From Sphaeroforma arctica JP610 (lineage: Eukaryota), in contig NW_014040382.1 of assembly GCF_001186125.1 (NCBI RefSeq), forward strand, positions 35,643-81,473: 45,831 nt of DNA, given 5' to 3'. The position numbers and the translations under genes are program-made. Each line of letters starts with the position of its first letter. Positions within the stretch are counted from its first letter, which is position 1. The notes below the pieces were generated by a model. It worked only from the letters and a program-made list of their open reading frames with translations. It was not told the origin of the DNA and did no database searches. Shown in pieces: positions 6,018 through 45,587 of this stretch.

Positions 6018-6022
6018 TGCTC

Positions 6023-16269: not shown

Positions 16270-18240
16270 TGAGGATGACAAGAAGGCAAAATTTAATTTG
16301 GAATCGACCCGTTTGGTTTCGGAGGCCCAATACTCGATTAAAACCTTGGGTAAGCTTAGAAAATCGCCAAACTGATTTTCTTATCAAGAAGGACAGTTGA
16401 ATACGATGATGCATGTGCAGGAGGCCACAGAAAATTTCAATATCATTCACGAGCAACTCCGCCAACTCCGGGAATTGTCTTTGGCGGATACTGACACGTC
16501 TATGCCCTATGATACGGTCCAGGCAACAGTGGATGATGATTTTTCTTAGACTCAGGCCACACCAACAGTGCAACAACGTTGAGCTCCTCAATACTCAACG
16601 CAGACTTGATCGACACCAATCGACCAGTTGCCTGACAGCGGGACTAACAACATGAAGCAAATTAGCGCGGTAAAACGCAGAATTGGCCGCACGAAGCCGG
16701 TACCTCAAGTGGCTCCGTACGATAATGTGCATATTTCTCGTAGAGATCGAATATTGCAAAACGCTCAAAAATGGGCAAAAGAAATCCCGACACCGGAGGG
16801 GATGTCATCTGACTTTGGGGAGCTGGCTCCGTACGATACTGTACACGCTTCTCGTAGAGGACAGATGCTGAACTACACTCGAAATCGATCACAAGCAATT
16901 CCGACACCAGAAGTGACGCCTATCGACTTCGGGCATTTTAATCGTAATCAGGAGTCGTCAGCTATAGTGATATCTCCGGGTGGATTTTTTTTGGACCCAG
17001 CGGACTTGCATTTGAACATGGCTACCCCTCAAAATTTGTCATCATCGGCGAAGCAGTCCATTGATGCATTTTGCAGAGTGATGGAATCTCCACACCAACA
17101 GCCTACTAACGGTCAAGTGGTAGAGAATTTATTTCGGGACAAGTTACAACATCGTCGTCGTCCACAGTCGATAATGCAAATGTACCTATCGATACGCTTG
17201 CATATCGCAAACACTTCCATGTTCATAATCGAGGACCCGCAGGATGTGAAACGATGTAAGATGTCACCACCTACGGAGGCGTGCATCACTGAATCTACCG
17301 CGGCAGAGATGAAAACGTAAGTATTCCTTCTTACCCAACGTATGATACAAGCAGAAGCTGAGGGGCGCACAGAGTACGCCCGTTCGTTGCAGGGTTTAAT
17401 TCGCACATCTAATGAGACGTTGGAGACTTGCACAATATATGTATATATATATATATATATAAGGTAGACAAACGAACGCCCATGGAATGGCCACCTAACC
17501 CACAGGGCAGCTATTATTTGAATAACCCGCAGAAGATACAGCTGCATGCGTTCATCTTAAATTGGCATGAGGATGCAAAATTTCACGAATTAGACCCGAT
17601 TCATATGCAGATGGACATAGGGCACTCCAGAAAGAAAGAGCATACAAGGTGTTATTAGAATTTAACGTGGAGAACGAACAAAAATTGCAGCCCATGTCGT
17701 TTCAGGACGCCACTGCTCATATTGTACGCACACACGAACAAGATCAGGATAATAACGCATACAAAAATATATTGGCTTGCATGAAGTTAAACCCTTCGGT
17801 GCCGCTAGAGACACAACTTCAGAATTTTGAACGCAAAGTAGACTTTATGGAGATGGACAATATGAAAATCCGTTTTACAAATATACCGCAACCATGGTAT
17901 GCTCAACCTAATCAGTTAAGCTGCGGGGGAGCATATTACTGTGATACTCTTCGTATGCATCCTTTCTGGCGAGAATATTCCGCGACACAAATACGTGATG
18001 TATTTCGGGTGAATATTGACAAGGCAGAAGAACACCGTCGGGTCAGCCTTTCTCGACCGCTGCAAATTCCGGGGGGATCACGTTCACGCACACGAATGCG
18101 TGTGGATGCGAACACACGAGCTAACCCGCATGCACCGCCAACATCAAACCCTAGGGCTCGTTGTCGGTCATGTGAGTAGAATATACCTCCTGGCCCAGCA
18201 TACGCATCACGCTGTCCTAAGTTACTGGGAGTACCAACAT
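16270..18240 (+). pseudogene. gag: gag-like ORF of family B, interrupted
   Basis: Successive ORFs 16628-17320, 17428-17658 and 17649-18179, ending in a knuckle-like CRSCE*...ASRC; lies upstream of the protease; homologous remnant at 31900-32727. Confidence 0.6.
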
Positions 18241-18525
18241 CAACCAACACGGGCAGCCATACACAACAGGGGGGTGCGCCACCACACCGTGCATCGGCTG
18301 TGGGAACATCCACGCGTACACAACAGGCGCCGGGTATTAACTTCCGCCCTCGAGTTAATCTCATGGATGGGGTGATCAGATGCCTGATCCGACGCCAGCA
18401 GAGGTAGGAAAGGTGATGCATATTCATGATTTGGTCGACAAGTCATATGTAGACACGAAGATGAGTTGATGGAGGCCGAGCAAGGGCCAGCCAGTTGGGA
18501 AAAGGAGCTAAGCTCAAATTGAGAT

Positions 18526-18938
18526 GTGGGGGTGTCTGAGTTGTACCTGTGCGTGACGTTTGGTCGTACGACGTCAAGAATATTTGCAGTAAAAGATAAA
18601 TTGTTCCCTACCGACAACCGTGTATATGTTACGTTACAAGTAAACGGACATGCGATGCGCACACTCATTGACACGGGAGCGAACCGCTCCATTATTACTC
18701 AGGCATCCGCAGCAGCGGTGCAACTATCTAATACACCACCAGCTAAAGATAGTTTTCTGTACTTGGCGGACAAAGTTTTCCGCACACCGCTCTTCGGCAA
18801 AACAAACGCCACGACGGTTCAATATTGTACAAAGTCTGCTGCAGGTTTTACGTTTGAACTTATGAATTTACCCAATAATATTGATGTATTTCTGGGAATG
18901 GATATTAGGGGCGAATTGGGATTAGGTCTTACCGGATT
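18526..18938 (+). pseudogene. pol: Retropepsin (aspartic protease), truncated by an LTR insertion
   Basis: VTLQVNGHAMRTLIDTGANRSII...DVFLGMDI. Confidence 0.9.
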
Positions 18939-19810
18939 TGTAAAAGTCAGACTAACCAGGCCGACTATAGATGTCAATAAGTTAACGTAAAAGAAAGTAC
19001 GATTTTAAAGTAAATTTGCACAATGTAATTCAAGTTTAGCTTCAGCCCTTGGTAATGAGCTAAAAGATTAGGGGATTTAAAACTGAGACTATTGTCTTTA
19101 TAGTTCCGCTCTAATCACTCAATACTTCGGTCTAGATTTACTTGGTGTCAGTAACTAAGATCAGATTTCATTTCATTGGATGCATGATATTTCATTCTAT
19201 ATCATTTCATGCTTCGAAACAATCTTCCTATCGCAATTACTAATAAAATAACTAAGTCTAACTTAAAAAAATAAAAATAAAATAAAATACACCATGTTAT
19301 TACAGTTAAATGTCTGTACCTATATCCCATCACATGGTATCTAGCTCTCTATCCCATTGAGGGCATAGACGGGCACATTTAGTCGGCTGGCTAGAGGGGA
19401 TCATTTTCATGTCCCATTTGTCAATGGGTTATCTCGCGCTAAGAGTATTCGGTAATATAACATGTGTCATCAAGTGTCAATTTTACCTGAGACTCTCCCA
19501 ACTATTATATCCCAATATTCTGATGGAAAACATATCGTTATAGAAAAACCATCATATCAATATCAATAGAGTCTCCGGCCTCTATTGTATACAATTATAT
19601 TTCAAATATCCAAAAATGGATTATTTGTTTGTTTGTTTTCTGCAAATTCAATATATCTAAATTTAGATTATTTGATTATTATACAGATACAAATATCTAC
19701 AATTGCGTTTCAACGGTTACCAGGTTTTATAACCGTTTGCGTTAACCGTTATCACGGTTATAATACACGTTTAACATGTGCTTCTACTATAGGAACCCGC
19801 TGATTTTACA
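18939..19810 (-). mobile_element. 3' LTR of chromodomain Gypsy family C (~872 bp)
   Basis: On the minus strand TGTAAAATCAG...CTGACTTTTACA (TG..CA with terminal inverted repeats), preceded by a PPT; homologous to 1421-2200. Confidence 0.88.
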
Positions 19811-19813
19811 CAG

Positions 19814-19824
19814 CCCCCCCCCTC
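19814..19824 (-). other. Polypurine tract of family C
   Basis: GAGGGGGGGGG, 3 nt upstream of the LTR on the minus strand. Confidence 0.85.
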
Positions 19825-19987
19825 AGTTTGAAAATTACAATGTTGGCTTATATGTGGTTTGAAGCACATAGACTCAAAAAGCTCACATGAATTGTACAAG
19901 CGAAAAGAAGAAACGGGGTTCGATCATATAATAGCCTCAATGCTTATATTATATTCTCTTAGACGAAGTATACTTAGACTTTATAAG

Positions 19988-20602
19988 TTACTCAGTAACT
20001 CTACTACGTTTGAGTTGAGGTCCTTGAGGTCCCCGATGGTGGATGGGACGTTTCTTGGTGCCATTAGGAGGTACGTACATTCCATGCTCTTGGAAGCTTG
20101 GAATGAATAAAGTCTGTGGATAAACCGTAACTACATCGGGACGTTTGTTTGTATGCAAGACTGCCTCTGCGTCTGCCTTGTTCTTATGTAGGCGTTTGCG
20201 AAACTTCTTATTAAAAGCCTTCAATACGTCTGGATCATCAAATACCGATGGGAGTAGATCGTATTGTGCACCATCTGCAAACTCTGTTGTGTAGTAAGTC
20301 ATGTTCTCATGTTTGTACTTCCCCAGAATTTTCTTAAACTCGTAAGACATAAGAGGTGTAGCAGCTTCACGTGTGCGACGAAGGATGATTTCTGTCGTCG
20401 GAATTCGATGTGATCCGATTCTAATAGCACTTGAACCGTCAACATTGTTAACTTCGTAAGTTCCGCTCTTCTTATCGGACACTGAAATCTTGAACGGTCC
20501 AATGTAATTAGCCGTAAGCACAGTTGAGTCGGAGTTGCGAGCCATAATGTTAACAATGTCGCCCACCTCAAACTCGACTGGTTTTAATCTTCTTAAAATC
20601 AT
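19988..20602 (-). pseudogene. pol: Integrase C-terminus: GPF/Y module plus chromodomain-like region
   Basis: FEVGDIV...YIGPFKI; YEFKKILGKYKHENMTYYTTEFADG...FDDPDVLKAF. Confidence 0.8.
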
Positions 20603-20643
20603 TACATCGCTTTTGTCTCTTCTTGAGTGCGATGTCTTTCATC

Positions 20644-21458
20644 TCAAGGAAAGACGGCATCTCTGGTACGACGCATCTTCTCTAACCATGGTAACACATA
20701 ATCGTCCTGAGAATCCTTGTTGAAAGGTACTTGTAGTTCACTATAACGGCCCATGAAATAGTGAGCGGGTGTTATACCAGTGACCGAATCCGGTATCTCG
20801 TTCATTTGTGTCTGTACCCAGTTAATTGAGTATGGCCACATGTCAGCATCGTCTAGCAATGTTCCAGGCATGAACTCCTTCATCTTTATGTGTCGTACCT
20901 CGTTTGCACCTTGTGTCTGAGGCTTGTAAGGTACACCCATATTGTGGCATGATCCCGTAACAAGTAACAGTGTCGTCATGAAACCTCCTGTAAACTCACT
21001 ACCGTTGTCGGTATATACAATAGCTGGCCAGCCGAAATCTGCGAAACATTTATATTTATGCACTCAGCCACAGTTTGTGTTGATTTATCTTTCAGAAGAT
21101 ATAGCATGTTATATCTTGAAGCAACATCAAACACGCGGCAGATATACTTCCCTTTCGTGTGTTTGGACGTGGGTAGCTCAACCAAATCAATGATAACCTT
21201 GTGCCACGGCTCGTCTTCTGATGCACTCCACAATAAGGCATATCCACGTTTGATCCGATTAACTTCGCAGTCGTTGCATTCGTGATACACCTGAGATATA
21301 TTTTGCTTAAGCTTTGGGTGTACAATCCCGTACCCCTTACAATCTTTCTCAGTCCTAGCTTTATCCATTTTATGAGGTGCATGATTTTGCCTTAACCACG
21401 TCAGAATGTCGTCCTCCGATGAACTTGCTGTGTCAAAGTCTGGACGTGAGGATTCCAC
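20644..21458 (-). pseudogene. pol: Gypsy integrase (HHCC and DDE core) of family C, frameshifted
   Basis: NHAPH...ECNDC, PWHKVIIDLVELP, FDVASRY, FGWPAIVYTDNGSEF, PYKPQTQGANE. Confidence 0.92.
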
Positions 21459-21539
21459 TACTACATCACTTGGACTTGAAGATTCGTCTGGTCCAATCTC
21501 GCCTGAGAGATCGGCCGTGTGAATTCTACTATTGTTGCC

Positions 21540-22450
21540 CTCCCTGCATACTATTTTTTATGGTCCGCCATTCGGTGCTGTTAACTTATTCATTTCACCT
21601 TGATAGCGGACCATGACAAGGTCCCCCTCTTGAAAGTTTACATACTTCTTTTTGTATTTTCGATTGTATGCTGCGCGCATCTTTTCTTGATACTGTGCAA
21701 CATTATTAGCTAGTTATGGCCTGATGGCTACTTCTAGATTTTGCAGTCGCTCTTTCCAAGATACTGTTGTACTGGGTGCGGTTTCTGGCTCGTTGGAGTC
21801 CGTGAGTTGATTCTGTCTGCGACCAAAGTAAACATTAAGGCGCGGTGACTTGTGTCTTCGAGATTGTGGCCCATCTGTACGAATGGAAGTTGTGAACACC
21901 AGATACCTGGATTCTGTTCAACGAATTTCCGTAGCAGTGACATGAGGTCTCTGTGTGATCGTTCGTTTGCGCCTAAGACTTTAGGTTGATACGGCCGAGA
22001 GACTAAGTGTTGCATTGGCGCTTGTTCAACAACTTTTGCAAGTATGTCGTTAACATATTCAGTGCCTTGGTCCGTTTGTATGGTTTGTGGGAATCCATGT
22101 TCACACATGATTGGTACCAGCATGCGTGCTATGGTAGCCGCCGATTTGTCATCATTGGAGGTAAAATGACGTACTAGGAATATATATCAAGCCGTACTAT
22201 CAAGCCGTACTAACACATGTGTGTGTCCTCTATTGGAATCCAATAGTGGCCCAATGGTGTCCACTTGGACTCTGTCGCTTGGATATGCTGCTGTGATTGA
22301 TTGTAAGGGATGAAATCCCTTTTTGTGTATCTTATTTTTGAGACATGGTGTGCATCCGTCAATGAACTTGTGTACATGTTGTTGGATATCAGTCCAATCA
22401 TGTCCATCTACTTGCACCTTGTGGTTTCCTCAAGAGTGTAATGTCTCAGG
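21540..22450 (-). pseudogene. pol: Gypsy DDE integrase of family A
   Basis: YHNLRHY...FIDGCTPC, DRVQVDTIGPL, GFPQTIQTDQGTEY, PYQPKVLGANERSH, then FQEGDLVMVR...GP*KIV. Confidence 0.92.
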
Positions 22451-22589
22451 TTGTGGTATTGCTCGATGATGTTTACCCGTGTCTCATAATCTGTTGCCTG
22501 TGGTGCATCCCCAGAGTGAACTGGTTCTGATGCTGCAACGTGTATAGCAGGTTGTTTCCATTTTGGGTCAATGTATGGAGACTTTACCC

Positions 22590-22981
22590 ATATCTTTGCG
22601 ACTAACGTGACGCCCCACGGGGACTTGCCACAAGTCTTCTGTCCTTCTTTTAGGAAAGTATTGTTTGTGTTTTCCACCAGCATCGGATCTTCTTCTAGTA
22701 AAGACAAGAACTTTGGAACCCACGTTGCGTTAGGGTAGTAGGGTGCACTTATCGTGATGCTGGCTGCCTCTTCTATGACTTTGTCAAAGACATCAGGTAT
22801 GAGTTCCCATGGTGGATTCGTCCATGCATTCACTTCTTGCGCCCACTTTTGTTGTAGCGCATTCTGTTATTTGGTGTAGTATTTATCTGTGTGTGCATTG
22901 TGTGCCGATGCAAACAGATCTACTGTGAACTTCCCAAATCTTCGTTCCGTTTCTTGGTAGAATCTGGGATGTACTCCAGTC
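22590..22981 (-). pseudogene. DNA N6-adenine methyltransferase domain (phage Dam/DIRS-MT type) inside the Gypsy pol
   Basis: DW/VHPRFYQETERRFGKFTVDLFASAHNAHTDKYYTK*QNALQQKWAQEVNAWTNPPWELIPDVFDKVIEEAASITISAPYYPNATW; DLFAS at 22906-22920, NPPW at 22807-22818. Confidence 0.88.
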
Positions 22982-23812
22982 TATAGCCGAGATGGTTATG
23001 GGCATGTTCGTTTCCAAGATGGTGTACTCTTGGCTATTATGTGTTGCCTCATTCGCCTGTTGTAATACTTTTGACTCTTTGGTACTAAAAGTATCTTCAT
23101 GTAGACGTGACAACATATCTGCCATCTGGTTGTCCTTGCCTGAGACATGTATGATAGAGAAATGGTGGTGGAACGTTTTTGCAATCCAGTTGGCTAGCAT
23201 TGGATGTAACGTCTGTTGATTGTTGGGGTGTTAGTGGATTATTAATAAAGACTCTGGATATGTTTTGTGCGAAAGCGCGCGCTTCACCCCCGCCTCGTCT
23301 TTAGTAATAACTCGTATAAAATAATTAAAATTTGGATATATTTTACTTACTATTATATTGTTGTTGCTTTGCTGCACTTCCGCGGGAAGTGTTTACCGTG
23401 CTGTATGGCCCGGTAGCTTGTTGCTTTGTTCCCTGTATTTATGAGGGTTGAAAACGGTGTTTGTTAGTCACGTGTGACGTCGCTTGTACTTATTCCGTTG
23501 CGTGAGAACTTATTGTCACCTGTGCTTATTTCGTCATGTGAGGATTTAGTTTCTCGTATGAGATCTCAATGATATGTTCGGTCCTAGTGACGTCACTGAT
23601 AAAGTTCGGTCTTGTTGACATCACCATGTGGGTTCAGTTTTGTCCCTTATTTGTTGTAGTGACAGATTTGAAATATTGTATTGTACCGAACTTCCGTGAT
23701 GTGTATGTTACCACTGTGTCTGTTGTATCCATATTGTTACCACTGTGTCTGTTGTACCAAATTCATTCGTGTTTCTTCGACTTACTGTTGTTGTAACGTA
23801 TTGGACCTTGCT

Positions 23813-24120
23813 TGCCTCTTGTGTGCTTTGACTCTATGTTCTCACCTTGTGTCTGTAAGCGTGCTTGCCTGCGATTTCGGTGTCTGATCGAATGGTAATT
23901 TGTACTTGCTTTGCTCGTCTCTCGTTTGTGCGATCTGTGTTAAACCGTAACTTTGTTGCCTCTTGTGTGCTGTGACTCTATGCTCTCACCTTGTGTCCGT
24001 AAGCGTGCTTGCCTGCGATTTCGGTGCCTGATCGAACGGTAGTTTGTGCTTGCTTTGCTCGACTCTCGTTTGTGATTGCTTTGCTCGACTCTCGTTTGTG
24101 CGATCTGTGTTAAACCGTAA
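23813..24120. repeat. ~144-bp tandem duplication within the family A leader
   Basis: TGCCTCTTGTGTGCT...GATCTGTGTTAAACCGTAACT units starting at ~23813 and ~23957. Confidence 0.85.
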
Positions 24121-25953
24121 CTTCGTGAGTTTCTTTGGTTAACTGTATATTTGCTTTGTTCTTGGTTGGTTGCCCCTTTGATGTACTGCTTCACTATGTA
24201 TATGTATGAGCTGTTTGGCTCTCGTGTGTATGGGCTGTTTGACTTTGGTGTGTGCTTGTGTATACGTATCGATCTGAATGACATGTTTACACCCTGTATA
24301 CGTTACTTGTACTTTGAGCAATTGCTGGTTCTCTTATTTGGGACTATACCCTTGTTTTGCTCTCTTGCTTATTTGATCAGAAAATATGTGTGCTCTGAAT
24401 TGAGCGTTTTTCTGATTTGGCTGTGGATTCCTTTATTGATCTTCTTGAGCCACTCTATGTGGTCGATCGGAATATTTGTGTGTTACAGGTTGAACCGAAT
24501 AGAAGTCTCCACATGCTAGTATGTGTGCTTCGGTTGAGTATATTCTACGTCGTGACTGTACATCTAATCCGTATCAGTCGTTGTTTCTGTGTGTATACTA
24601 TGTGTGTTCTGTAGATTTCAATGTCTGGTTGCATGTTCTGTGTTTCCTAGACGTGTATTCTACTGGTCTCGATATGCCATACAGTATCTATGCTTGGATG
24701 GTTATATTGCCCTCCCTAGATTACTATACAGTATCTATGCTTGGGATAGTGTTTTTGCCCGCCCTAGATTACTTGAGCATTCGGAAGATCTCTCTCAATT
24801 TCACGTGCTCGTGATTCTTTTGAACTGTTTGTTCTAAGTGTGAAGACCCTTGTGTATTTACAGTTATGTTATGTGTATTTATCACAGGTTGTACCTCTGT
24901 AATATACTTGGTAGCGTGCTTGAAATGACCTATATTACTTGTGCATTCTTAAGATCTCTCTCAATTTTACATTCTCTTGCTTGTTTCTATTATTTGTTGT
25001 GCGTTATACTATTGACTAGGGTTATGTGTGTTTATCACAGGCTGTACCCCTGTAGTATATATGGTTCCGTGCTTGGAGTGTCCTAGATTACTTATGCATT
25101 CTTCAGATCTCTTTCAATTTCACGTGCTCGTGATGCTTCTAAGATTTCTTGTGCTCTATACTAAGATCAGTCAGTGATTTGTCTAATGCATGCTCTGTGT
25201 GTGCCTGCGATCTGATGATCTTTATGACACATCTTTTTCTGGTGTTTGCTATTATGTTACCCTTATTACTCGTATACTAATGGGCGGTCTTCAATTTTTA
25301 ATGATTCTGATCTTATGTGATCGATCGTGCTGTCTTATTGTTCTAACCTAGTGTTACTTGCCCCTTGTGAGTTGTTGTACTGCACAGTAAGCCACCTTTT
25401 TGTTTGCCCGTAATTGCGGTTTTAGCTATTAACTATCAAACCCTTATTGTTGAATGGTTCTATAAACTTGTACCATCGTAAGCCTATGTTGTGTGTGTTT
25501 GTAAGTGTCTTATCTCGTGTTGTTTCTTAGGGCCCCTGATATCAGTGCATTTTCTTGTTCGATAATCCCCAACATTGATAAATTAATCACCTTGACACCT
25601 AATATTCTTTTACACGTTAATATCACTGTTCACTTATTAAGATAACTGTTGCACTTCTGTAACGTATCCAGCTTACTTCTGGAGCACGTTGTTATCTACC
25701 TCAGTTGTAGCTCTGAAGTCCTGCTGTTCTCTGTTTCCTTCTCATGTCTTCTACAGTCTCTGTTGTTGGCTTTTGCGTCTCCTGATGACCTTCTTGCTTG
25801 TTCCAGCCTCCACTTCTTTGACACAGGTTACTTTAAATCTCTAGAGTTTGTATAAAATAGTAATAAAGGCCATAGCTCTCACACTTACAGTCTTTTCTTC
25901 TTTAGTGTGTTAGGCTTATTGATGACTTATCTATAAGGATATTGTAAAAAAAA

Positions 25954-26247
25954 TGTAGAGTATGGAGAGTAGCTGAAAGGTACGAGACAAAATGATACAA
26001 TAGACCTCTTCTTAAGTACGGTTATCTCAGCTAGGAAAAGTCCCTGGTCTGCGAGAACCGAACTGAGTCTTTATTTGTGTTTTCACTAGCACGCGGGAGT
26101 TCCGGTATAGCTTAACGATTCTACCGCTGATATTTCTGATGACTCTAATATCAGAAATATTCCAATGCTAATTTCAAAACTCAGTATTTGATTATTCTGG
26201 GTTTTGGGATTTGTATTGACTTTTTGATAATCTGGTCCCTAGATACA
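25954..26247 (-). mobile_element. Family A LTR with small deletions
   Basis: On the minus strand TGTATCTAGGGACC...CCATACTCTACA; homologous to 28182-28506, 32728-33052 and 39260-39583. Confidence 0.88.
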
Positions 26248-28506
26248 ATATTATACCGAACTGTGTCTTGTGTGAACATCACTTGATATTAGATTGTTGC
26301 TTAGTAAAATTTTATTTCTACACCTCGTGACTCACTCGTGCACGTTGTAACCTCTGGGCTTCGTGATGCTGCTGTGAATTAATTGCAATCTTGTAAGTCT
26401 ACAACCCCTTCGCCCTTGTTGGCATATCTTGGTTCTTATAAACTATACTTTTGTTGTCTGTCCTATATTTGTTCGAGCATGCTTGTTTTTATTTCATGAT
26501 CAGACCTTGTGAAAAGAAATGGAGATGACTTGTTGTGTGATTACAGGGTGTTTTTGTGCCACACTACCACCTTTGATATCATGTGTGTCTATGCTAGACT
26601 GTGTGGGTACTAATTGTAACCTTATCTTATGCGTCACTTTACCTTAGCCAACTACTGAGCTTTGGTGATTTGTTTGTACATGTCTGAGATTTGACACGTT
26701 TCTTTGTGTGACGATCGTGCCTGGTGTATGTTCCAGTCGTCTTTGTATTTTTCACTTAATGCTCATGTGTGAGATGTGGTCGGTGTGTATCGTAATTGTT
26801 ATTGGTACAGATCATGTGTTGTTGTTTTTCAAGTACTGAATCGTTTTGACTTCCTCAATCGCTATTTGATGCTATGCGCGTCTCGATTGATTCTGTGGGT
26901 TGTCTGATTAAAAAAATAATTTTTTTTTGCGGTTGTAATTGTTTGGCACTTCACTTCTTAATACCTGCTGTTGTGTGCTTATTGTACTTTGTGTCTAGGT
27001 TATGTATTGCCTATGTAGTCTCGTGGCTGGCTTAACCTATCACTTTGATGTTGTCAATCTTAAACTGTTCCTAATTTTCGAGTCTTTGTGCGTGTGTTAT
27101 GCCATTTCCCGTGAATTGCATCTTTGTGAGTGTCTTGTATACCATTAGTTGTGTGTGTCTTGTTTCAGGTTTGTGTTCATTTGACTGGAAACTGGTCTTA
27201 GCATTTGATCGTGAATTGATCTATTGTTTGTTCAGTTATCTTCTTGAATGACTAGTAGAATGACTAGTTGTTTTATTGTTCTTTCGTCTATTAAGCATGT
27301 GCATGCTCTGTTGGTTCCTGGTAGTGGAGATTGTTATACTTCTCCTTGGTGTCTATGCTCATGTCTGACCGAAATGCTTCGAAATGGAGATTTGATGTTT
27401 GTAAATCCTACGATCTCTGTGAGTTTTAATATATGTGGTTACGTTTAATGAGGTGTAACTGATTTGTTATTGTCTTTGTGTACCTCTATTGTCTTGTGCT
27501 TGTCTTCTTGTGTTTCTGCATGCACAGATGTTCTGATCTGATTCTCTTGTGTCACGTGCATTTTGCTATTGTTTTCTAGGATAGCTGAGTGAAGTGATAT
27601 GGTGTCTTTTTTTTATCATGACATCAGGATATTTTCTTGTTCGAAAACACAGAAAATCCCCAACATTGATGAAATGATCATTGTGACAGCTCTTCTCTTT
27701 TTCCACTGGTTTAACCCCCTTACTTAACCAATTTCCACTGAAACACATTATTGAGCAATTTTATGACAACTCACTGTGTCAATATAACAATATATATGGT
27801 TATGGACACGTTACTTGCACCTGTGTGTTTTAGAACACCACGTTCACCTATGTTACAAATGAGCACCCACTTTGGATACCTTGTTACTTGTCGTTTCTCA
27901 AGCTGTTGGGATAACTTCTTTCTTGGTTTTCTTTGTGCCCACTTTGCTGCTGACACCTGGTCGTTGAGAGTCTTCTATCCTCTTCCCTTTTGCGGTCCGA
28001 GTCTTTCTGGTCTCTTCGTTGACACCTCTTCTGGTCTGGGTCTCTCTTCTTAGTGGTTGGAACTACTTTAATAAGGTTTATATCTTTCTAAGTCACCTAG
28101 TGTGTTACTTCACTTCTATTTTCTTCTTGGTTGTAGAGTTGTAAGTTGTTAGACTTACCTAAGTAAGGATATTGTAAAAAATGTAGAGTATGGAGAGTAG
28201 CTGAAAGGAGCGAGACAATAGTATACAATAGACCTTTTCTCAAGTACGGTTATCTTAGCTAGGAGAAATCCCTGGTCTGAGAGAACCAAACTGAGTCTTT
28301 ATTTGTGTTTTCACCAGACTCAGGATTTACTTGAGTGTTTCTCTCACAAGTGGGAGTCCCAGTATAGCTTACCGGTTCTACCGCTAATATTTCTGATGAC
28401 TGTAATATCAGAAATATTTCAATGCTAATTCCAAAACTCAGTATTTGATTCTTATGTGTTTGGGATTTGGATTGGCTTTTTGATAATCTGGTCCCTAGAT
28501 GCTACA
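26248..28506 (-). mobile_element. Second family A 5' end: LTR (28182-28506) plus truncated non-coding leader
   Basis: TGTAGCATCTAGGGACC...ACTCTACA followed by TTTTTTACAATATCCTTA; leader blocks match 39584-41250. Confidence 0.85.
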
Positions 28507-29820: not shown

Positions 29821-30000
29821 TGTGGACAAAGTGCCCTGGACGGACATTTAGGACCGGACCAGAGGACCGGACCAGAGGACCGGACCTAAGGAGATTAGTT
29901 CAGGGACCGGACCAGATTTTGGAGTAGAAGATTCGGTGACAGAAGGATGACTCGTCGGATGTCATAATAATTTAGTAGCTAGGAGACGGGTTAACTCTCC
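29821..30000 (+). mobile_element. Family B LTR, 5' part; LTR-like sequence resumes at ~31598-31661 after the LINE
   Basis: TGTGGACAAAGTGCCCTGGACGGACATTTAGGACC; the tail ...GAGAAAATCTCGTCCCACA matches 15590-15608. Confidence 0.75.
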
Positions 30001-31513
30001 AAATATCTGAAGTTTCCACTCTACCACGGAATACTAGGGATCAACCTCGCCAGACATATGGAATCCCTGGTTGCAGCATTGTCCCTGAGTATCGCCTCTT
30101 TCCGCGCTTATGGCTTCCATGGTTTCAGCTGGGGACACCCCCGCAACTGACTGCTGCTGTTCAAAATATTCACTCTATCCACACGGCTACATATGGCCTG
30201 AATATTATTGCCTGGGCTCCGTCTATATAGAAGGATGCGCTGGACCCCCTGTTTGGGCGCTATAGGTCAGCACTCATCCAAGCAGCAGCCACCATCATGG
30301 GCACTAAATACTCTAGGTTTATCCCAAACATCAAACAAACTTACTCCACTTTTGTGGCCTGTTCCCCGTGCAACCATTAGCGGACTACCTCTGGAGGATA
30401 TGTGGGAAAACAACCCGACTCAATGGCCAGTACAACCCCACTCACCCCACTGACGCAACCCGCCTGGGCCCACGACAAACCATCACTGTGCTTCCCGTAC
30501 AGTATCTATGCCCACCTGGAAACTGTATACGAAACCGGCCATGTAGCTCTCCGCCGACGCTGTGACGACATTAGAAATAACTCAACGAAACGCTGGTCTA
30601 ACAAGGAGAACGCGGCAATGGCCCGGCGCCAATACTACTACCAACTGGTCATGGGCAAACCACCAACCTCAAATCGGTCCAAAGCCAGACAGTTTCAACC
30701 ACTGCTTCGAGCCTACACCAATCTGGCTCTGTGCTTTGATTGTAATGAATACGTACATGTTCACATTGCTCGAATACCGCACCGAGGGCTGCCTCTGCCC
30801 TGTTTGCCCCGGTGGCCACAAATTTACCACCAGCCGCTTTACCTGCATCCAACAAGTGATCCGACACATCCTGACGGCCCGAAACTGCATCCCTTTGGCT
30901 CTGTCCACCTCTAGCAATTACAAGAGCGCAACGACTTCCACAGTATCTGGACCCGAACACCTTGGATACTTTTTCCAGCATGTAGAACAACCCCCGTACC
31001 CACACCCGTCTCTGACACATCAACAGATGTTCCCTTTCCCCAGCGAATCACGTTGGTGAAGTACTACTGATTCCAAATTTTGGTCCAAACCAAGTCATCG
31101 CCTTTGTTGGTTCTGCCTATGATACTTCCGATTCAGGCCAACCAGCACATACCGAGTGCATCCGTGGTCTGGTGCGGCATCGGTTCACCCCTAACCTCGC
31201 TCCTCCACCGAATTATAACGGATAACCTGATCCTACTCGGCTTTTCGTACTCTGCACTAACACATTCCACGGTACTACACGGTGCAGACCCGATCCGTAC
31301 CACAGTGGTGGGTACGCCACTTGGTAAGTCAGCAAGCAAATATGTGTACGTGGCACATTCGATGGTGTCAGTTTTTTGTCTGCATCGGCCTGAATTGACC
31401 CAGCGCATATCTTCCATCGTCGACTCACTTGGCCCAAGCTTCAAAGGGGAATGTACTGACCACTTCTTCCCATCGATCTTCCCCGAACCACTACAACGGC
31501 TATGAGAGCCATA

Positions 31514-31552
<39 letters not shown>

Positions 31553-31592
31553 CATTGTAACTTATCTCCTTTGAAATAAGCAATACTATCCC
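30001..31592 (+). mobile_element. 5'-truncated, more diverged copy of the APE-RT LINE
   Basis: Begins at the KYL motif (GINLARHMESLVAALS), carries CLCPVCPGGHKFTTSRFTC, and ends SIFPEPLQRL plus the same 3' tail. Confidence 0.92.
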
Positions 31593-31899
31593 TTAAAGAC
31601 GAAAACAATAGATACGGGTATTTTAACAATTGCCCGTTGTTAGAGAAAATCTCGTCCCACATGCATTCCCAGTGGCACTTCTGACTGAGTTCACTTATTT
31701 CAGACTTAACACTCTTTACTACACGGCTTCAAGAGGTTTTTAGGGTATGAAGGGACCTAGTACTACACTGGTACCTCAGGTAGGCAGGCAATCTTGTATC
31801 CGGTTTTTGAAACGGTTGCTTGGAGTTCATTGTCGATTGCATTCAGTCCGTGAAAAGGTGGCGACAGCTTTTTCTATAGATACGACACCGGATAACGAA

Positions 31900-32727: not shown

Positions 32728-33052
32728 TGTAGCATCTAGAGACCAGATTATCAAAAAGCCAATCCAAATCCCAAAACCCAGGATCATCAAAAATTGAGTT
32801 TTGGAGTTAAGATTGCAATATTTCTGATATTAGAGTCATCAGAAATATTAGCGGTAGGACCGGTAAGCTATACCGAGACTCCCGCGTGTGAGAGAAACAC
32901 TCAAGTAAATTCTGAGTCTGGTGAAAGCACATATAAAGACTCAGTTCGGTTCTCTCAGACTAGAGACTTTTCTTAGCTGAGATAACCGTACTTAAGAAGA
33001 GGTCTATTGTATTCCTTGGCTTGTACCTCTCAGCTACTCTCCATACTCTACA
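32728..33052 (+). mobile_element. Isolated family A LTR (325 bp) without TSD
   Basis: TGTAGCATC...ACTCTACA; flanks TCACG and AGTCT do not match. Confidence 0.88.
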
Positions 33053-39259: not shown

Positions 39260-41792
39260 TGTAGCATCTAGGGACCAGATTATCAAAAAGCCAATCCAAA
39301 ACCCAAAACCCAGGATCATTAAATATTGAGTTTTGGAATTAAGATTGCAATGTTTCTGATATTAGAGTTATCAGAAATATTAGCGGTAGAACAGATCAGC
39401 TATACCGGGACTCCGCGTGTGAAAGAAACACTCAAGTTAATCCCGAGTCTAGTGAAAACACACAAAAAGACCCAGTTCAGTTCTCTCAGACCAGGGACTT
39501 TTCCTAGCTGAGACAACCGTACTTGAGCAGAGGTCTATTGTACCCCTTAGCCGGTATCGTTCAGCTACTCTCTATACTCTATATTTTTTACAATATCCTT
39601 ACTAAAAGTCAAGTAGCTTACACTCAACAAACACACAGAAGAGAAACGAGGGACTGCTAGTATATATTAGAAGTCTCGAAGAACTTTCTTTATAAGAAGA
39701 AGACGAGACGAGGCCCCAACAGAGGAACAAAGTCGCTCTAACCACCACGGAAGGGAATAAATAGAAGGAGGTTAGAAGTGGAAAGGCAGCAGGAGAACAG
39801 TTGAAGAGGTGAAGAAAACTTTGTTCTCTGTCCACCAAGAAAAACAAGCAGGTAATTATATCGTGTTCCTGTGCAGGGTCCAAAAGGATCGAGGTAAAAG
39901 TATTGTGTACAGTGTGAGACTCTTAAAAACAAGTATTCAGGAATAGAGAGAAGGACAGAAAGTATCAAGGTCAAGGTGGGACGAAAAGGTGTGAGCGAGT
40001 TAAAAAAAATAAGCTGTCACATTGATAAAATCATCAATGTTGGGGTTTCTCGAACAAGAAAAACACACTGACGTCAACACTTAGAAAAGACATTGCCCCT
40101 CAACCATAGACTCTATACAAAAGAACAATAGACTCTCTATACAAAAGAGACATACATCAGCACACAAAATAACATGGTCACAGTGGTACAGAGTAAACAA
40201 ACATGCGAACATCGAATGCACAAAGGCGTTTAGGCAAGTAATGTCATGAAAGCTTAACATTGTCAAATACAAAGAACCTCATTATCATAGACTAACAAAT
40301 AAGAAGGCCGCAGTCTCAATCGCTCATAGAAGCACAGTCCGAACAATTAGATCAAGGGCATCAGCTTTAAATTGAGATCGAAAAGGAGACAAGACACACA
40401 TGCAACAGCAAGAGTGAACTTTATTTAGTCAAGTATCCTAACTTTAGATTAAGAGATCTTACACAACATAAAGAAGGATTTAACCCACCTGATTCACATG
40501 TAACACACACAAACATCTGATGAAGATCAGAAATCGTGTACCAGCAAAATATGCACACAATCAAGACACAATCTGGCACATATCGCTTGCACACAACATA
40601 GTATCGCCACACAACAGTGGTATATCCAGAGTAACGAACTGAACCCAGTTTGATCAGGTATCAACCATACTAAAGAAAAGGATCACAACGAGATTGAGGA
40701 CAGAACTCGAAGGCACATATCTAAGAAACAGACATCAGCTATAGAGATAATATGGACGCATCATAACATATAATATAAACACATAATCGCAACATATGAT
40801 CAATCAGATCAAGCAATCAAGCAAACAACAAACGTCCACTCTGAAGAGATTGAGATCGCACTTTAAGATCAAAGATCAAATAGTAAGCAATCCAGCAGCT
40901 ATACAAATACTACCAATGCACGGAGAAATCACACGATCAATCAAGCCAGCATCCACAAGATTGACTAAACATAAAACAGATCAAGTGAACGCACATAAAT
41001 AAGTGAATAAAGCGAATATCGATTGAGATGCACATGGCCATCACAGACAAATAAGTGAATGGGAACCTAGCAAAAGTACTTGAGTAGTACTGACTATTAG
41101 CGCACAAAACGATTACAGGCAAGCAGGTTAATACATACCAGTATACAACAATCACCAGACAATTAGTCTGGGTGGTAACAAGAAGGGTGAGTAACACTGC
41201 GCACTTATCTCATCACACATTGAACCTGACATCGGAGGTGAGACCTGCACACAAAATCACACACAAGTGCCAAGGGAATCATAGGTGGGAAGCATTCATG
41301 TATATAATACATAGAACACGCCAAGTGACACCACACACACAACAGTTCGGTACACACACAACGTACAAGGTACAGTAACTAGGACCGAACATCAAGGGGT
41401 GACGTCAGTAGGACCGAACATCAAGGGGTGCCGTCACTAGAACAGAACATCTCAATGAGATATCACGTGAGAAAATAATTTCTCACATGACGAAATAATC
41501 ACAAGTAAGTCCACGCGTGACGAAATAAGCTTGACTAACAAACACCGTTTAACCCCTCATAAACACAGGGAACAAAGCAAAAAGCTACCGTACCATACAT
41601 AACGGTAAACACTTCCCGGGGAAGTGCAGCGAAGCAACAACACTATAATAGTAAGTAAAAAAACTTCGAAAATTATTTATTTCATACGAATTAATACTAA
41701 AGACAAGGGGGTGAAGCGCGCATCGCACAAAATATGGCAACAGTCTTTATTAATAACCTGCAATACCCACACACAATCACAGATATCTCAAG

Positions 41793-43130
41793 ATGCCAAC
41801 GGCAACCAGAGCAAGCGTGTATGGTGGTGAAGAAGGGAGTGTGGGCACGGATAGTGCAAGTGCCAACCCAATGGGGGGGGGGGGGGGGGACAAGCCCAGG
41901 CAGTGGCTCCGGCCAGCCTACACCGGCTGGGGTACCCATACTAATTTCAGCTATGCGTCAAGAAATAAACAAAAGAATTTGCCAAGGCAACATTTCCTGG
42001 TTAGTAGGTTTGTTTCCAAATAGGAACAACCAACAGCAGTGCCTATACCGACTCTACACATGATGAGAGTAGGCATTCATGACCAACAGCCAGAACGACG
42101 TATGCCACTCGTGAATGCGGAGCTCAGACGAAGATATGATTTAGCTATCAATGATTGTGGAGACGAAGATGAGGATGAATCCATTCAAATAAGTCAATAC
42201 ATTAATGAGTTAGAGCTCATGCGTTCACGCTTAGGCGACCAGACAAACGAACCACCTCTCGCAAAACTACTAAGACATCATAATTTCCTAAACTCCCTGA
42301 AGATAGTGACTTTAGAATGGAAAATTGCGAAGACATCATAGAGTTCACTACGCGGCGATGTAGTGACCTATTCCTAACAAAGTCCATGCCACTGTGTCAG
42401 TACTCCGCACTAGTAAGAAACCCATTAGATTCCACTGATGTAGCGGAGAAGACCAAGTCAGTACTCAATAACTTGAGAGATTCTGAGACGCATACAACCA
42501 AGCACTTCAAGGAACCTAAGCAATTCAATAGAATCATTATTGGCAGACTCAGGCCTCACCCAGTAGACTATCTGTTATAGAAGCTTCTCAATGACATGCA
42601 GAACAAGAAGCTGAACGTCGAAGTGCGCACAGAGCGTGCACATAAGACTATGGCGATGTTAGAGGAGCGGTACCGCAACTCAAACAAGGAACCCATACAC
42701 TTCCAACTCCTTAAAGTACAAAGATACCAAGCACTTATGTACTACGGACAACAAGCACAGGTGGATGCTCTCATCAAGGCAGACAAGCAACCTGATGGAA
42801 GTGAGGGGCACTTATCAGATATAGAACACACTAAGTTTCATACTATGACTGAGGCAAGCATAAGAGCGGAGTCCAAGGTGCAAAGAGACCGAATGCCAAG
42901 GGAACAGTTGCGAGTGCAGAACAAGCGTCAAAACACGCAGACAACCAACCACGCTGAGAGTAGTACACTACCGCTACTAACAAAAGGCATAAACCAGATA
43001 ACGGTGCACCCAATCAAACCAAACCAATAGGACAAGCCCAAGAGAAGAAAGGGGAACGCGAGGAGCGCGCATGTCCTTATTGTAAGGTGATGCCAGCCCC
43101 ACATCGCTTCAGTCAATGTCCCATGAAGGC
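41793..43130 (+). pseudogene. gag: Family A gag, frameshifted (including at the G-run 41873-41889)
   Basis: Chain of ORFs 41793-43030, then the knuckle CPYCKVMPAPHRFSQC near 43072-43120. Confidence 0.7.
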
Positions 43131-43266
43131 GTCGAATCAGACCACGCAGGCTGAGGAGCGTGTTTGAAATGATGTGCAAGTAGCACGACTGTTCATTACC
43201 TCCGGTAAAGTAAAAGACATCACAGATGGTGATGAGCACTGAGATAACTAGTGGGCGGAAGCGAAC

Positions 43267-43605
43267 ATGATTGATCTGGCTGACAGTCTAAATGTAAATG
43301 CAGATGAAGTGACGTTGTTAATAAATTTAAATGATATAAATTACCAACCTTTGGACCAACGAATACACATTGACATACAAATTAATGGCAATACATACAA
43401 TACACTAGTAGACTCGGGTGCACAACGCTTATGTATGGATAGGATTGTAGTAACTAATCTTTATTTCTCGGTTAGAGCGCGACCGGGTTCTATACAATTA
43501 GCACAAACAGATGCAAGAATACAACGCACAGGGTCAACCCAAGTATGGGACATTAATTGCGGAGGAAGAAAAACCTCTCAATGTTTTGAAGTGTTGGACC
43601 TTTAG
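43267..43605 (+). pseudogene. pol: Retropepsin of family A
   Basis: IDIQINGNTYNTLVDSGAQRLCM. Confidence 0.9.
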
Positions 43606-43702
43606 ACAAGTAGGCACCCATACTTCTCAGTATTGACATTCTACCATACATCGGCATATACATAGCAGGATTAATCAATCCAATTGTACCAACAGATGCA
43701 AA

Positions 43703-45120
43703 ATGGGAATAGAAGGTTTCGGAGAGTCACTGGCAGACCTCTTAGACACAAATGCGAACCTACCTCCTGACGTACATTGCAATCTACCAGGCTGCACAGC
43801 CACAGTGCCTGCAAACGAAATTAATGTCAAACGAATGAGGCACGCTAAAGTCAATTTTGTACCTAACAATTATATTCCGCAAATGAACGAAAATGTACAA
43901 AAGTGGCATACAGATGGGCACATATACAAACGAACCACACCAACAGCAGTGAATCTACCGTTGTTATCAACAAGTGAACATGTCCAAACCCAATAGTTTT
44001 TGCTACCAAAATTAAAGGAAGGACTATACAACCTACAATGAGTACAGTTATTTTCAATGTTAGATCACACAGGAAGGTTCCACCACTACCTAGTAGACGA
44101 AGCAAGCCAACACTTCTTCACATTCTCGTGGATAGGAGCGCAATACTCATCCAAGTCAGCGCCGTTTGGACTACACTCACTCACAGCGCAGTTCCAGAGA
44201 GTCATGGCAGTTCCAGAGAGTCATGGCAAACCTGCCCATATACATCAAAGGTATGCAAGTGTATGTAGATGACAATCATTGCGAGTCTTACAGAATAATA
44301 ACACCGCAAGACAGTTCGCGAAGTAATCAAGCGACTGAATGGAGCAAACTTCGGACTTAATCACAACAAGTGTGCATTCGCGGTCAAAGTGGTCAACATT
44401 CTAGGGGTGAAAGTCGCCACCTAGGGACTCAAAGCGGATCCTGAGAAACAAAAAAGGTTGATGGACTGGTCACTACACAGAACAAAAAGAGATCTGCACA
44501 AAGCGGCGGGACTCGCAAACTATATGCGTGACCATGTCACCAACTTTTCCCACACAACGAAACACTTCCGGAAATAATGCAGGGAAAATGAACCAGAACA
44601 TATCCATGTTATGGACTCCGGAACTCAAAACGAAGTGTAAGAACTCAAAAACCCCATCGCATGTTCGGCGACACTAGCATACCCTGTTGATGGGGTACCA
44701 TTTCAAATAGTGAACGATGCTAGTGACTATGGCAAAGAAGTATGTTTTATTTCAAGTCATCGATGGGGTTGGGAGACACATTCTCTACTTCTCAAAAGGC
44801 TTGAATCCAGTACAACAACGTTATGGCATAAAAACTAAGGAGCTACTAGCACTAAGGAGCCACTAGCACTAAGAAGCTACTAGCACCAAGGAGCTACTAG
44901 CACTGGTATACAGCCTGGAACATTTATCCGAATACATCAAAGGAAGGGACATAATACTGTGGACAGATCATAAAGCACTCACGCAAAAGAACAGTCAACA
45001 GACTTTACACCCAATGCTAACCAAATGGATAGCAAAAATATTCCATCACCATTTCTCCATCATATACGTCCCAGGCAAAGACGACCATAGGGTAGATGTG
45101 GTGTCGCGTCTACACGAAGA
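43703..45120 (+). pseudogene. pol: Gypsy RT and RNase H of family A
   Basis: LDHTGRFHHY, APFGL, QFQRVM, VYVDD, KCAF..V..LG; VNDASDYG, KELLAL, WTDHKAL, YVPGKDDHRVDVVSR. Confidence 0.9.
44834..44901 (+). repeat. 17-bp tandem repeat x4 inside RNase H
   Basis: ACTAAGGAGCTACTAGC units at 44834, 44851, 44868 and 44885. Confidence 0.92.
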
Positions 45121-45232
45121 CACGTTTAATACTAAAACGTCCGAGGTATTACAAGACGCGAACAAAACAACACATAACAGCCAAGAGTACACAACATTGG
45201 AAACTAACATGCCCATAAGCACATCAGTTATA

Positions 45233-45587
45233 GACTGGATATTACACTCCAGATTATACAAAGAAGCTGAAAGACGGTGTGGGAAATTCACAGTAGATCT
45301 GATTGCGTCGGCACACAATGCACGCCCAACCCAACCAGGAAGCGAAGGCATGGGCGAACCCGTCATGGGAACTCATACCTGATGTCCTTGACAAAGTCAA
45401 CGAAGAGGCAACCAGCATCACGATATGTGTACCATATTACCCCAGTGCAACGTGGTTTCCAACATTCTTGACTTTACTAGAAGAAGATATGATGCTAGTG
45501 GAAAACACAAACAAAAATTTTCTCGAAGCAGACAAGAAAGCATGTGGGAAGACCCCGTGGGGCGTCCCATTAGTAGCAAAGATATGA
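45233..45587 (+). pseudogene. Second copy of the Dam/DIRS-type N6-adenine methyltransferase domain
   Basis: DWILHSRLYKEAERRCGKFTVDLIASAHNA / AWANPSWELIPDVLDKVNEEATSITICVPYYPSATWF; internal deletion and frameshift between the two blocks. Confidence 0.85.

What the first reader, a model, noticed from the sequence alone, without database searches (positions are those of the whole stretch)
22590..22981. Ty3/Gypsy LTR retrotransposon encoding a DNA N6-adenine methyltransferase between RNase H and a DDE integrase
Seen: on the minus strand the RNase H tail (HVSGKDNQMADMLSR) is followed by DW..HPRFY...FGKFTVDLFASAHNA...YYT..NAL.QKW...AWTNPPWELI..V..K...APYYPNATW. Directly after it come an HHCC zinc finger, a DDE core and a GPY/F module. 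Established: DLFAS...NPPW is the SAM-binding/catalytic signature of phage Dam-like amino-methyltransferases and of the MT domain that DIRS1-type tyrosine-recombinase elements carry after RH. Canonical Gypsy pol is PR-RT-RH-IN with no MTase. This family has a retropepsin, TG..CA LTRs and a DDE integrase, and I see no tyrosine recombinase in the window. Inference: a Gypsy lineage captured an adenine MTase into its polyprotein and might mark its own cDNA or integration sites with 6mA (or 4mC), for example for self-recognition or to evade silencing. I cannot confirm novelty without a literature search.
Basis: partly seen in the sequence, partly recalled or inferred. Interest (0 to 1): 0.92.

Follow-up and report, generated by a model that had tools for sequence, protein, structure and literature searches.

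The report
Decayed methylase-carrying Gypsy retrotransposon
This is a broken copy of a Gypsy-type jumping gene that carries an adenine-methyltransferase domain between its RNase H and integrase; the design is real and intact in relatives, and the domain likely marks the element's own new copies, but this same lineage was described in a 2026 preprint.

Summary
Window 22981-22591 (minus strand) encodes a Pfam Dam domain (54.1 bits, cut-off 28.1) between an RNase H tail and an HHCC/DDE integrase. This copy is dead: one stop, one frame break, and gag-RT deleted. A second broken copy lies at 39260-45831. Intact 1288-aa relatives carry PR-RT-RH-Dam-IN in one frame; Ty3 is their best solved match. 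The closest named proteins are from Sphaeroforma arctica, with relatives in Abeoforma. That is the 'Ichthyosporean DAM-LTR lineage' of bioRxiv 10.64898/2026.05.21.726589, so it is already known; this scan also noted the kind in other genomes. Three small additions. (1) The predicted fold matches phage Dam models best and, among solved structures, the RNA cap methylase PCIF1/CAPAM, which the preprint's main text does not mention. (2) Intact relatives end in a diverged chromodomain, which the preprint says the lineage lacks. (3) The apparent second integrase downstream is a join with a second Gypsy family whose closest intact relative also carries Dam. Substrate and activity are untested here.

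The parts
22591..22981 (-). Dam-like (PF05869) amino-methyltransferase domain; DLFA from 22920, NPPW 22818-22807; broken by a frame change between 22976 and 22971 and a stop at 22869-22867
23105..23224 (-). 3' tail of RNase H (family A)
   Evidence: P0007 600-680 aligns to 23224-22973 at 73%
22982..23104 (-). RH-Dam linker
21812..22480 (-). Integrase of family A: HHCC zinc finger and DDE core, with stops and frame breaks (bounds approximate)
   Evidence: P0007 866-1065 aligns to 22420-21812 at 67%
21537..21811 (-). Integrase post-core region and GPY/F module of family A, cut off at the join
21531..21541 (.). In-frame join between family A and a second Gypsy family (B); other copies of each family leave the window sequence here; one contig bridges the join without differences
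19990..21536 (-). 3' part of pol of family B: linker, HHCC, DDE core, GPY/F, weak chromo-like end; closest intact relative P0012 is RT-RH-Dam-IN
19805..19826 (-). Polypurine tract followed by TG, the likely start of family B's 3' LTR (its extent was not determined)
   Evidence: sequence directly; no second copy of this start in the window
23212..23232 (-). Deletion join: gag start fused to the RH tail, about 3.2 kb missing relative to the plus-strand copy
23260..25923 (-). Long A-rich 5' leader; its last 420 bp and a short upstream piece match the plus-strand copy's leader
25924..26244 (-). Likely 5' LTR of the minus-strand copy (decayed start, short internal deletion)
28152..28506 (-). Further LTR copy with a leader fragment, in tandem upstream
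39260..39592 (+). TG...CA LTR (333 bp) at the 5' end of the second family A copy
41735..45110 (+). Second family A copy: gag with a CCHC-like knuckle, retropepsin, RT, RNase H, all with stops and frame breaks (bounds approximate)
45225..45584 (+). Dam domain of the second copy; about 35 bp deleted and the catalytic motif reads NPSW

Best explanation
This is a decayed, internally deleted copy of an ichthyosporean Ty3/Gypsy 'DAM-LTR' retrotransposon, whose intact relatives encode protease, reverse transcriptase, RNase H, a Dam-like methyltransferase-fold domain and a DDE integrase in one frame; the domain likely adds N6-methyl groups to adenines of the element's own cDNA or RNA:DNA intermediate. 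Shown: the domain, its position, its fold prediction, its conservation across divergent families, and that both window copies are broken. Inferred: the host is Sphaeroforma or a close relative. Inferred mechanism, also the preprint's model: Pol is packaged in the virus-like particle; the domain binds SAM through the DxFA region and uses NPP[W/F] to methylate adenine on the nucleic acid being reverse-transcribed; the marked copy integrates, and host AMT1 would then maintain 6mA, so that the insertion looks like active chromatin and is transcribed. Odds: identity as a DAM-LTR about 0.95; this mechanism about 0.5.
For: Pfam Dam 54.1 bits. P0007 and P0008 are uninterrupted PR-RT-RH-Dam-H2C2-rve proteins, 57-77% identical to the window pieces over most aligned segments. 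Best solved match of P0007 is Ty3 Gag-Pol, E 1.8e-65, then Ty3 RT/RH, E 1.9e-51. Named neighbours are S. arctica SARC_00333 (80%), SARC_09892, SARC_05614 and SARC_12119; A. whisleri P0047 has Dam before its integrase and P0060 has RH-Dam-IN. D21, A24, N28, W53, N55, P56 and P57 are invariant in 11 of 11 aligned sequences that are 27-80% identical to the window domain. Dam identity of P0007 to four other polyproteins is 80/47/42/34%, against RT 94/43/42/41% and flanking linkers 79/9/21/12% and 44/12/6/21%. dN/dS between the two window copies is 0.34 over 112 Dam codons. The model (pLDDT 87.9) matches phage N6-adenine DNA methyltransferase models at E down to 1.4e-09 among named rows. The preprint reports more 6mA and more transcription on DAM-LTRs than on other LTRs in S. 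arctica and A. whisleri (text only, figures not seen). PCIF1, the nearest solved fold, also methylates RNA/DNA hybrids and ssDNA in vitro (abstract of PMC9178792).
Against: No activity was shown here or in the preprint: eukaryotic DAMs expressed in dam-minus E. coli did not raise 6mA. The 6mA enrichment is a correlation and could follow from transcription plus AMT1. Iyer et al. call DIRS1 MTase domains likely inactive (PMC4738411). The best solved structural match and the next six VIA rows act on RNA. A Pirum gemmata polyprotein (P0018) sits inside the Dam-bearing RT clade but has no Dam, so the domain can be dispensed with. dN/dS of 0.34 is not lower than in neighbouring regions (0.13-0.34). 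The window is tied to the preprint's lineage by host names only; I could not see its sequences, figures or supplements.
Confidence: 0.6

Rival explanations
1. Same element, but the domain methylates RNA: the element's own transcript (cap-adjacent or internal adenosine) or its primer, in the manner of PCIF1/CAPAM, to steady or translate the RNA.
For: The six Foldseek hits at E<=0.001 in the PDB are all PCIF1/CAPAM. VIA-align ranks zebrafish CAPAM first (Z 10.8, rmsd 2.6, 125 aligned), ahead of DIMT1/Erm/KsgA (Z 9.6-8.5) and T4 Dam (Z 8.4, rmsd 2.4, 101 aligned). Iyer et al. place DIRS MTases in the PCIF1 clade. It would explain the negative E. coli DNA assay.
Against: Predicted phage Dam structures score better (E 1e-09 to 1e-06) than viral PCIF1-like proteins (E 3.8e-05 and weaker). 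No PDB sequence matched the domain at E<=10, so PCIF1 may lead only because the phage family has no solved structure. CAPAM needs a helical domain for cap binding (PMC8287941 passages), and the 135-aa retroelement domain has no room for one. A shared fold shows no function.
Confidence: 0.2
2. The domain is kept as a non-catalytic nucleic-acid- or SAM-binding module of Pol; the 6mA on these elements comes from host AMT1 because they are transcribed.
For: Iyer et al. 2016 judge DIRS MTases likely inactive. The E. coli assay was negative. Earlier scan notes report DAM-LTR families with an altered catalytic motif but a conserved domain (unchecked).
Against: NPP and DxxA are invariant in 11 of 11 aligned sequences across divergent families, which is what a working active site would give.
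Confidence: 0.17
3. A DIRS fragment (RH-MT) joined by chance or by misassembly to a Gypsy integrase.
For: The locus is a nest of broken elements and does contain one real chimeric join at 21534-21536 and one deletion join.
Against: Uninterrupted RH-Dam-IN proteins exist in several divergent families (P0007, P0008, P0012, P0020, P0060, P0062). The second window copy has the same order. A contig with no differences spans 22364-22675, from Dam into the zinc finger.
Confidence: 0.02
4. The family has two integrases in tandem, because the first integrase's GPY/F module runs in frame into a second HHCC/DDE integrase.
For: The frame is continuous across the join apart from two stops, and one contig bridges it.
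Against: Intact P0007 and P0008 have one integrase and continue differently after GPY/F. Contigs of both families leave the window sequence at 21531-21536 in all four runs laid. None of the 19 relatives scanned had two rve stretches. S. arctica P0010 and the intact P0012 show a linker, not an integrase, upstream of the second zinc finger.
Confidence: 0.03

Closest known systems
Ichthyosporean DAM-LTR lineage (Fernandez-Moreno et al., bioRxiv 10.64898/2026.05.21.726589; whole main text read, figures and supplements not seen)
   Same: Ty3/Gypsy-type pol with a Dam domain and NPP catalytic triplet; hosts named there (S. arctica, A. whisleri, P. gemmata) are the hosts of my named neighbours; the same cDNA-marking model is proposed.
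   Different: The preprint says this lineage lacks chromodomains; intact relatives found here end in a diverged chromo-like domain that falls under the Pfam cut-off. Its main text never mentions PCIF1/CAPAM (0 occurrences). It compares the domain with T4/E. coli Dam and finds it partial, whereas phage matches of the PF05869 type cover up to 72-90% of the domain.
DIRS1-like retrotransposon MT domain (PMC3266345, passages; PMC4738411, section 9)
   Same: Methyltransferase domain placed directly after RNase H in pol; function unknown.
   Different: DIRS use a tyrosine recombinase and inverted repeats. This element has a retropepsin, a DDE integrase and a TG..CA repeat.
Phage Dam family PF05869 / phrog_111
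   Same: Best sequence and predicted-structure matches; same order of SAM-binding and NPP[Y/F/W] motifs; similar small size.
   Different: Stand-alone phage genes, 25-40% identical in the 20 rows listed; target sequence of the retroelement domain unknown.
PCIF1/CAPAM cap-specific m6Am methyltransferase (PDB 6IRV, 6IRX)
   Same: Nearest solved fold (Z 10.8, rmsd 2.6 A over 125 residues); NPPF versus NPPW.
   Different: About 15% identity; no WW or helical cap-binding domain in the retroelement.
Chromoviruses (Ty3/Gypsy with an integrase C-terminal chromodomain; definition recalled and as given in the preprint)
   Same: Chromo-like domain after GPY/F in intact relatives.
   Different: The domain is diverged; by eye it lacks the first and third aromatic cage positions (alignment; cage positions recalled). 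RT placement among reference chromoviruses was not tested.

Membership tests
Ty3/Gypsy LTR retrotransposon | pol order PR-RT-RH-IN with a DDE integrase | tested here: met
   Intact P0007/P0008; window pieces colinear with them
Ty3/Gypsy LTR retrotransposon | RT/RH of Ty3/Gypsy type rather than DIRS type | tested here: inconclusive
   Best solved match is Ty3 and Pfam RT_RNaseH families pass, but my RT tree held no DIRS or named reference sequences
Ty3/Gypsy LTR retrotransposon | Paired direct TG..CA LTRs with target-site duplication | tested here: inconclusive
   A 333-bp TG..CA repeat lies upstream of the plus copy and decayed copies upstream of the minus copy; neither copy has its own 3' LTR inside the window
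DAM-LTR (Fernandez-Moreno 2026) | Dam domain (hmmsearch E<1e-5) in an integrase-type LTR element | tested here: met
   PF05869 E 2e-14 in the window, 4.4e-15 and 2.4e-14 in intact relatives
DAM-LTR (Fernandez-Moreno 2026) | NPP catalytic triplet followed by an aromatic residue | tested here: met
   NPPW in the minus copy; NPP invariant in 11 of 11; the plus copy has decayed to NPSW
Ichthyosporean DAM-LTR lineage | Host among Ichthyosporea (S. arctica, A. whisleri, P. gemmata) | tested here: met
   All named close proteins are S. arctica; further Dam-bearing relatives are A. whisleri. The window's own host is inferred from these
Ichthyosporean DAM-LTR lineage | Dam falls in the preprint's ichthyosporean clade | not testable with these tools
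   The preprint's sequences and trees were not available
Ichthyosporean DAM-LTR lineage | No chromodomain (as described in the preprint) | tested here: not met
   P0007 C-terminus: Pfam Chromo 15.6 bits, E 0.015, under the cut-off of 25.1, none listed for P0008; ESM Atlas 27 of 30 hits in the chromo set, best 0.92; leave-out HMM 26.4 and 22.3 bits against a best of 3.3 in 200 shuffles. At the preprint's E 1e-5 threshold it would be missed, so this reads as a correction to the description, not as non-membership
DAM-LTR (Fernandez-Moreno 2026) | Raised 6mA on insertions; host AMT1 present | not testable with these tools
   No methylation data or genome held
DIRS1-like element | Tyrosine recombinase ORF | tested here: not met
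   0 of 63 stop-free pieces hit a recombinase family (weak in decayed DNA); intact relatives carry rve instead
PCIF1/CAPAM family | WW and helical cap-binding domains; PCIF1 profile match | tested here: not met
   No PCIF1 Pfam family listed at E<=1; the 135-aa domain is flanked by RH and IN; only the fold matches
Active N6-adenine methyltransferase | SAM-dependent methyl transfer | not testable with these tools
   Needs an assay; both window copies are broken

The most novel reading that the evidence does not exclude
Ichthyosporean DAM-LTRs are chromodomain-bearing Gypsy elements whose methyltransferase is a PCIF1-like enzyme for single-stranded or hybrid nucleic acid: it methylates the element's RNA or RNA:DNA intermediate inside the particle, not duplex DNA, while the diverged chromodomain steers integration. 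This would explain the published negative E. coli assay and give the DIRS/LTR 'MT' domain, of unknown function since its description, a testable substrate.
Probability: 0.25. Interest if true: 0.6.

Novelty: already known. Interest (0 to 1): 0.2.

Why it matters
As a discovery it matters little: the kind of element, and very probably this lineage in this genus, was reported in May 2026, and the window holds only dead copies. What remains useful is practical. Natural intact polyproteins (P0007, P0008, P0012) are at hand for an assay. The structural match to PCIF1 suggests testing RNA, hybrids and ssDNA, which the published E. coli test did not cover. The diverged chromodomain corrects the published description. 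If a retrotransposon does pre-mark its cDNA with the host's 'active' mark, that is a way of escaping silencing worth knowing, but the credit for that idea lies with the preprint.

Tried and rejected
No genome is held for this window, so copy number, full-length insertions, target-site duplications and AMT1 could not be checked. The first fold, on 8 close sequences, failed (pLDDT 43.4) and was not searched; the second, on 11 more divergent sequences, worked. Sequence searches of the PDB with the domain found nothing at E<=10; with alignments they returned integrase and RT chains among the rows shown. A scan of viral contigs found no relative among 196 pattern matches. Sequencing runs: no RNA holder listed, so nothing can be said on expression. 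Contig depth looked higher over family B than over family A but is not a copy number and was not used. The tandem-integrase idea was tested and rejected. A first chromo HMM built from six canonical domains was inconclusive for family A (9.9 and 8.7 bits against a best shuffle of 10.0); only the broader leave-out HMM separated them, and I chose five of its eleven seed segments from the Dam-related proteins. Family B's chromo-like end stays doubtful (window 13.0 bits, P0012 1.6 bits), and the Atlas did not answer for it. A Dam-domain tree failed in the script and was not repeated. The RT tree used 26 of 37 RT-RH hits (those with more than 300 aligned residues), all fetched by integrase likeness, midpoint-rooted, without DIRS. 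Literature searches: 'retrotransposon + adenine methyltransferase + Gypsy + integrase' 7 papers; 'LTR retrotransposon + two integrase' 1 unrelated; DIRS terms 39; 'PCIF1 + DIRS + methyltransferase' 2, one relevant; 'Sphaeroforma + retrotransposon + 6mA' only the preprint; 'Caulimoviridae + adenine methyltransferase' 1, not read. The library lacks most subscription papers.

Full report
Observation. An RNase H tail ends near 23105. After a 40-codon linker comes DW at 22981-22976, and in another frame HPRFY, DLFA (22920), a stop (22869-22867), NPPW (22818-22807) and the domain end near 22591. Read with X at the stop, the piece scores Pfam Dam PF05869 at 54.1 bits, E 2e-14, cut-off 28.1, and phrog_111 at E 3.8e-16. 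It matches 408 of 50,697 phage records at E<=0.01. An HHCC zinc finger, an rve core and a GPY/F-like module follow.

Anatomy of the locus. Self-comparison shows a second copy on the plus strand: LTR 39260-39592 (TG..CA), a 2-kb A-rich leader, gag, retropepsin, RT, RNase H, Dam and the start of the zinc finger, where the window ends. It is 78% identical to the minus copy over RH-Dam-ZF. Its Dam has lost about 35 bp and reads NPSW. The minus copy has its own decayed 5' LTR (26244-25924) and leader, but about 3.2 kb from the gag start to the RH tail is deleted at about 23224. Both copies are dead. No tyrosine recombinase family was hit by any of 63 stop-free pieces in the two spans, a weak test in decayed DNA.

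Family. Three proteins of similar length matched the domain, all S. arctica, 56-70% identical (3 of 8 candidates). Among longer proteins, 3 of 133 candidates matched: S. arctica SARC_00333 (80%) and two unnamed 1288-aa proteins, P0007 and P0008, 85% identical to each other. These are uninterrupted PR-RT-RH-Dam-H2C2-rve polyproteins, and Ty3 Gag-Pol is the best solved match of P0007 (E 1.8e-65). A search with the integrase region returned 76 proteins; a local Dam profile found the domain in P0012, P0020, P0021, P0047, P0060 and P0062 among them, confirmed by Pfam (P0012 at 26.2 bits is just under the cut-off). P0047 and P0060 are from Abeoforma whisleri. In an RT-RH tree of 26 of 37 hits, the five Dam-bearing proteins and one Dam-less Pirum gemmata protein form one clade with support 1.00; the tree has no DIRS or named references and does not test Gypsy against DIRS. 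The domain is about as conserved as RT and far more than its linkers in the distant families, and D21, A24, N28, W53, N55, P56 and P57 are invariant in 11 of 11 sequences. dN/dS between the window copies is 0.34 over 112 Dam codons, not lower than neighbouring regions (0.13-0.34).

Fold. A model on 11 sequences reached pLDDT 87.9; a first try on 8 close sequences failed. Among predicted viral structures the best named matches are phage DNA N6-adenine methyltransferases (E 1.4e-09 onward), ahead of viral PCIF1-like proteins (E 3.8e-05). Among solved structures all six hits at E<=0.001 are PCIF1/CAPAM, and VIA-align ranks CAPAM first (Z 10.8, rmsd 2.6, 125 aligned), then rRNA adenine methylases (Z 9.6-8.5) and T4 Dam (Z 8.4, rmsd 2.4, 101 aligned). 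This agrees with Iyer et al., who placed DIRS MTases in the PCIF1 clade and thought them inactive (PMC4738411, passages and section 9). The fold fixes the chemistry class, amino-methylation, but not the substrate.

The second integrase. The first integrase's GPY/F module runs in frame into another HHCC/DDE integrase. This is a join, not a design. Intact family A proteins continue differently. Contigs of each family leave the window sequence at 21531-21536 in all four runs laid: on the family A side 6, 7, 3 and 1 contigs in X1, X6, X16 and X2; on the family B side 3, 4, 1 and 1 among the rows shown. One contig of X2 bridges the join with no differences, so it exists as DNA, though that run may be the window's source. 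The downstream part is closest to P0012, a single-integrase RT-RH-Dam-IN protein.

Chromodomain. The intact family A proteins end in a chromo-like domain: Pfam Chromo 15.6 bits in P0007, under the cut-off, and not listed for P0008; ESM Atlas 27 of 30 hits in the chromo set, best 0.92; a profile that left family A out scored 26.4 and 22.3 bits against a best of 3.3 in 200 shuffles, while a narrower profile was inconclusive. This part is not in the window, because the join removed it.

What is known. Fernandez-Moreno et al. (bioRxiv 10.64898/2026.05.21.726589; whole main text read; figures and supplements not seen) report Dam domains in Ty3/Gypsy elements for the first time, define five lineages, and name an ichthyosporean one in P. 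gemmata, A. whisleri and S. arctica. They find more 6mA and more transcription on these elements, no activity in E. coli, and propose marking of RNA-DNA intermediates followed by AMT1 maintenance. I found this paper before consulting earlier scan notes, 23 of which hold the same words in at least 3 other genomes, the 8 shown reaching the same verdict. The MT after RH in DIRS1 is described in PMC3266345 (passages). PMC6338049 (passages) mentions DAM in DIRS and loosely in 'Ty3/Gypsy and DIRS clades'. PCIF1 facts come from PMC8287941 (passages) and PMC9178792 (abstract). The preprint's supplements could hold these very sequences, their domain order and any note on chromodomains.

Mechanism and verdict. 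I commit to the element-borne marking model at about 0.5: the domain travels in Pol, methylates adenine on the cDNA or hybrid during reverse transcription, and the host would maintain the mark after integration. RNA methylation (0.2) and a non-catalytic role (0.17) are the live rivals. Only the domain, its place, its conservation and its predicted fold are shown; every step of activity is inferred. The finding is real and already known. The additions are a PCIF1 pointer for substrate choice, a missed chromodomain, and signs of two DAM-LTR families in one genome. Interest 0.2.

Noticed in passing
window 21531-21541: In-frame join of two Gypsy families within the GPY/F module, giving a false two-integrase look; bridged without differences by one 359-nt contig of run X2, which may be the window's own source.
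   Followed up: yes
window 19990-21536 (-): Second family (B): 40-52% identical to the intact RT-RH-Dam-IN protein P0012, which is only 29-35% identical to family A pieces, so the genome likely holds two old DAM-LTR families; family B's own Dam is not in the window.
   Followed up: partly
protein P0018 (Pirum gemmata): Falls inside the Dam-bearing RT clade (FastTree support 1.00) but goes from RNase H to the zinc finger without Dam: a likely secondary loss.
   Followed up: partly
proteins P0020, P0021, P0062: Unnamed Dam-integrase polyproteins from JGI and ENA assemblies; P0062 has a full-score Pfam chromodomain (34.4 bits) together with RH-Dam-IN. Hosts unknown.
   Followed up: partly
window 23260-25923 (-), 26245-28150 (-), 39593-41730 (+): Unusually long (2-2.6 kb), strongly A-rich leaders with short internal repeats and no Pfam-matching ORF.
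   Followed up: no
window 25924-26244, 28152-28506, 39260-39592: Three LTR copies are followed by the same short motif after the terminal CA, a possible primer-binding site; the primer was not identified.
   Followed up: no
window 33157-37000 (+): Decayed Ty1/Copia element (RVT_2 E 8.8e-20, SH3_retrovirus E 3.9e-09), just downstream of a cut LTR copy at 32727-33050.
   Followed up: no
window 2312-6849 and 29993-31593: Decayed LINE-like element (endonuclease E 1e-04, weak RT hits) with partial copies in both orientations.
   Followed up: no
window 37996-39259 (-): Third family A fragment (gag piece, protease, RT start), 84-88% identical to the plus copy and head-to-head with its LTR.
   Followed up: no
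window 17571-18990 (+): gag-protease remnant of another Gypsy family (gag-asp_proteas E 2.6e-08).
   Followed up: no
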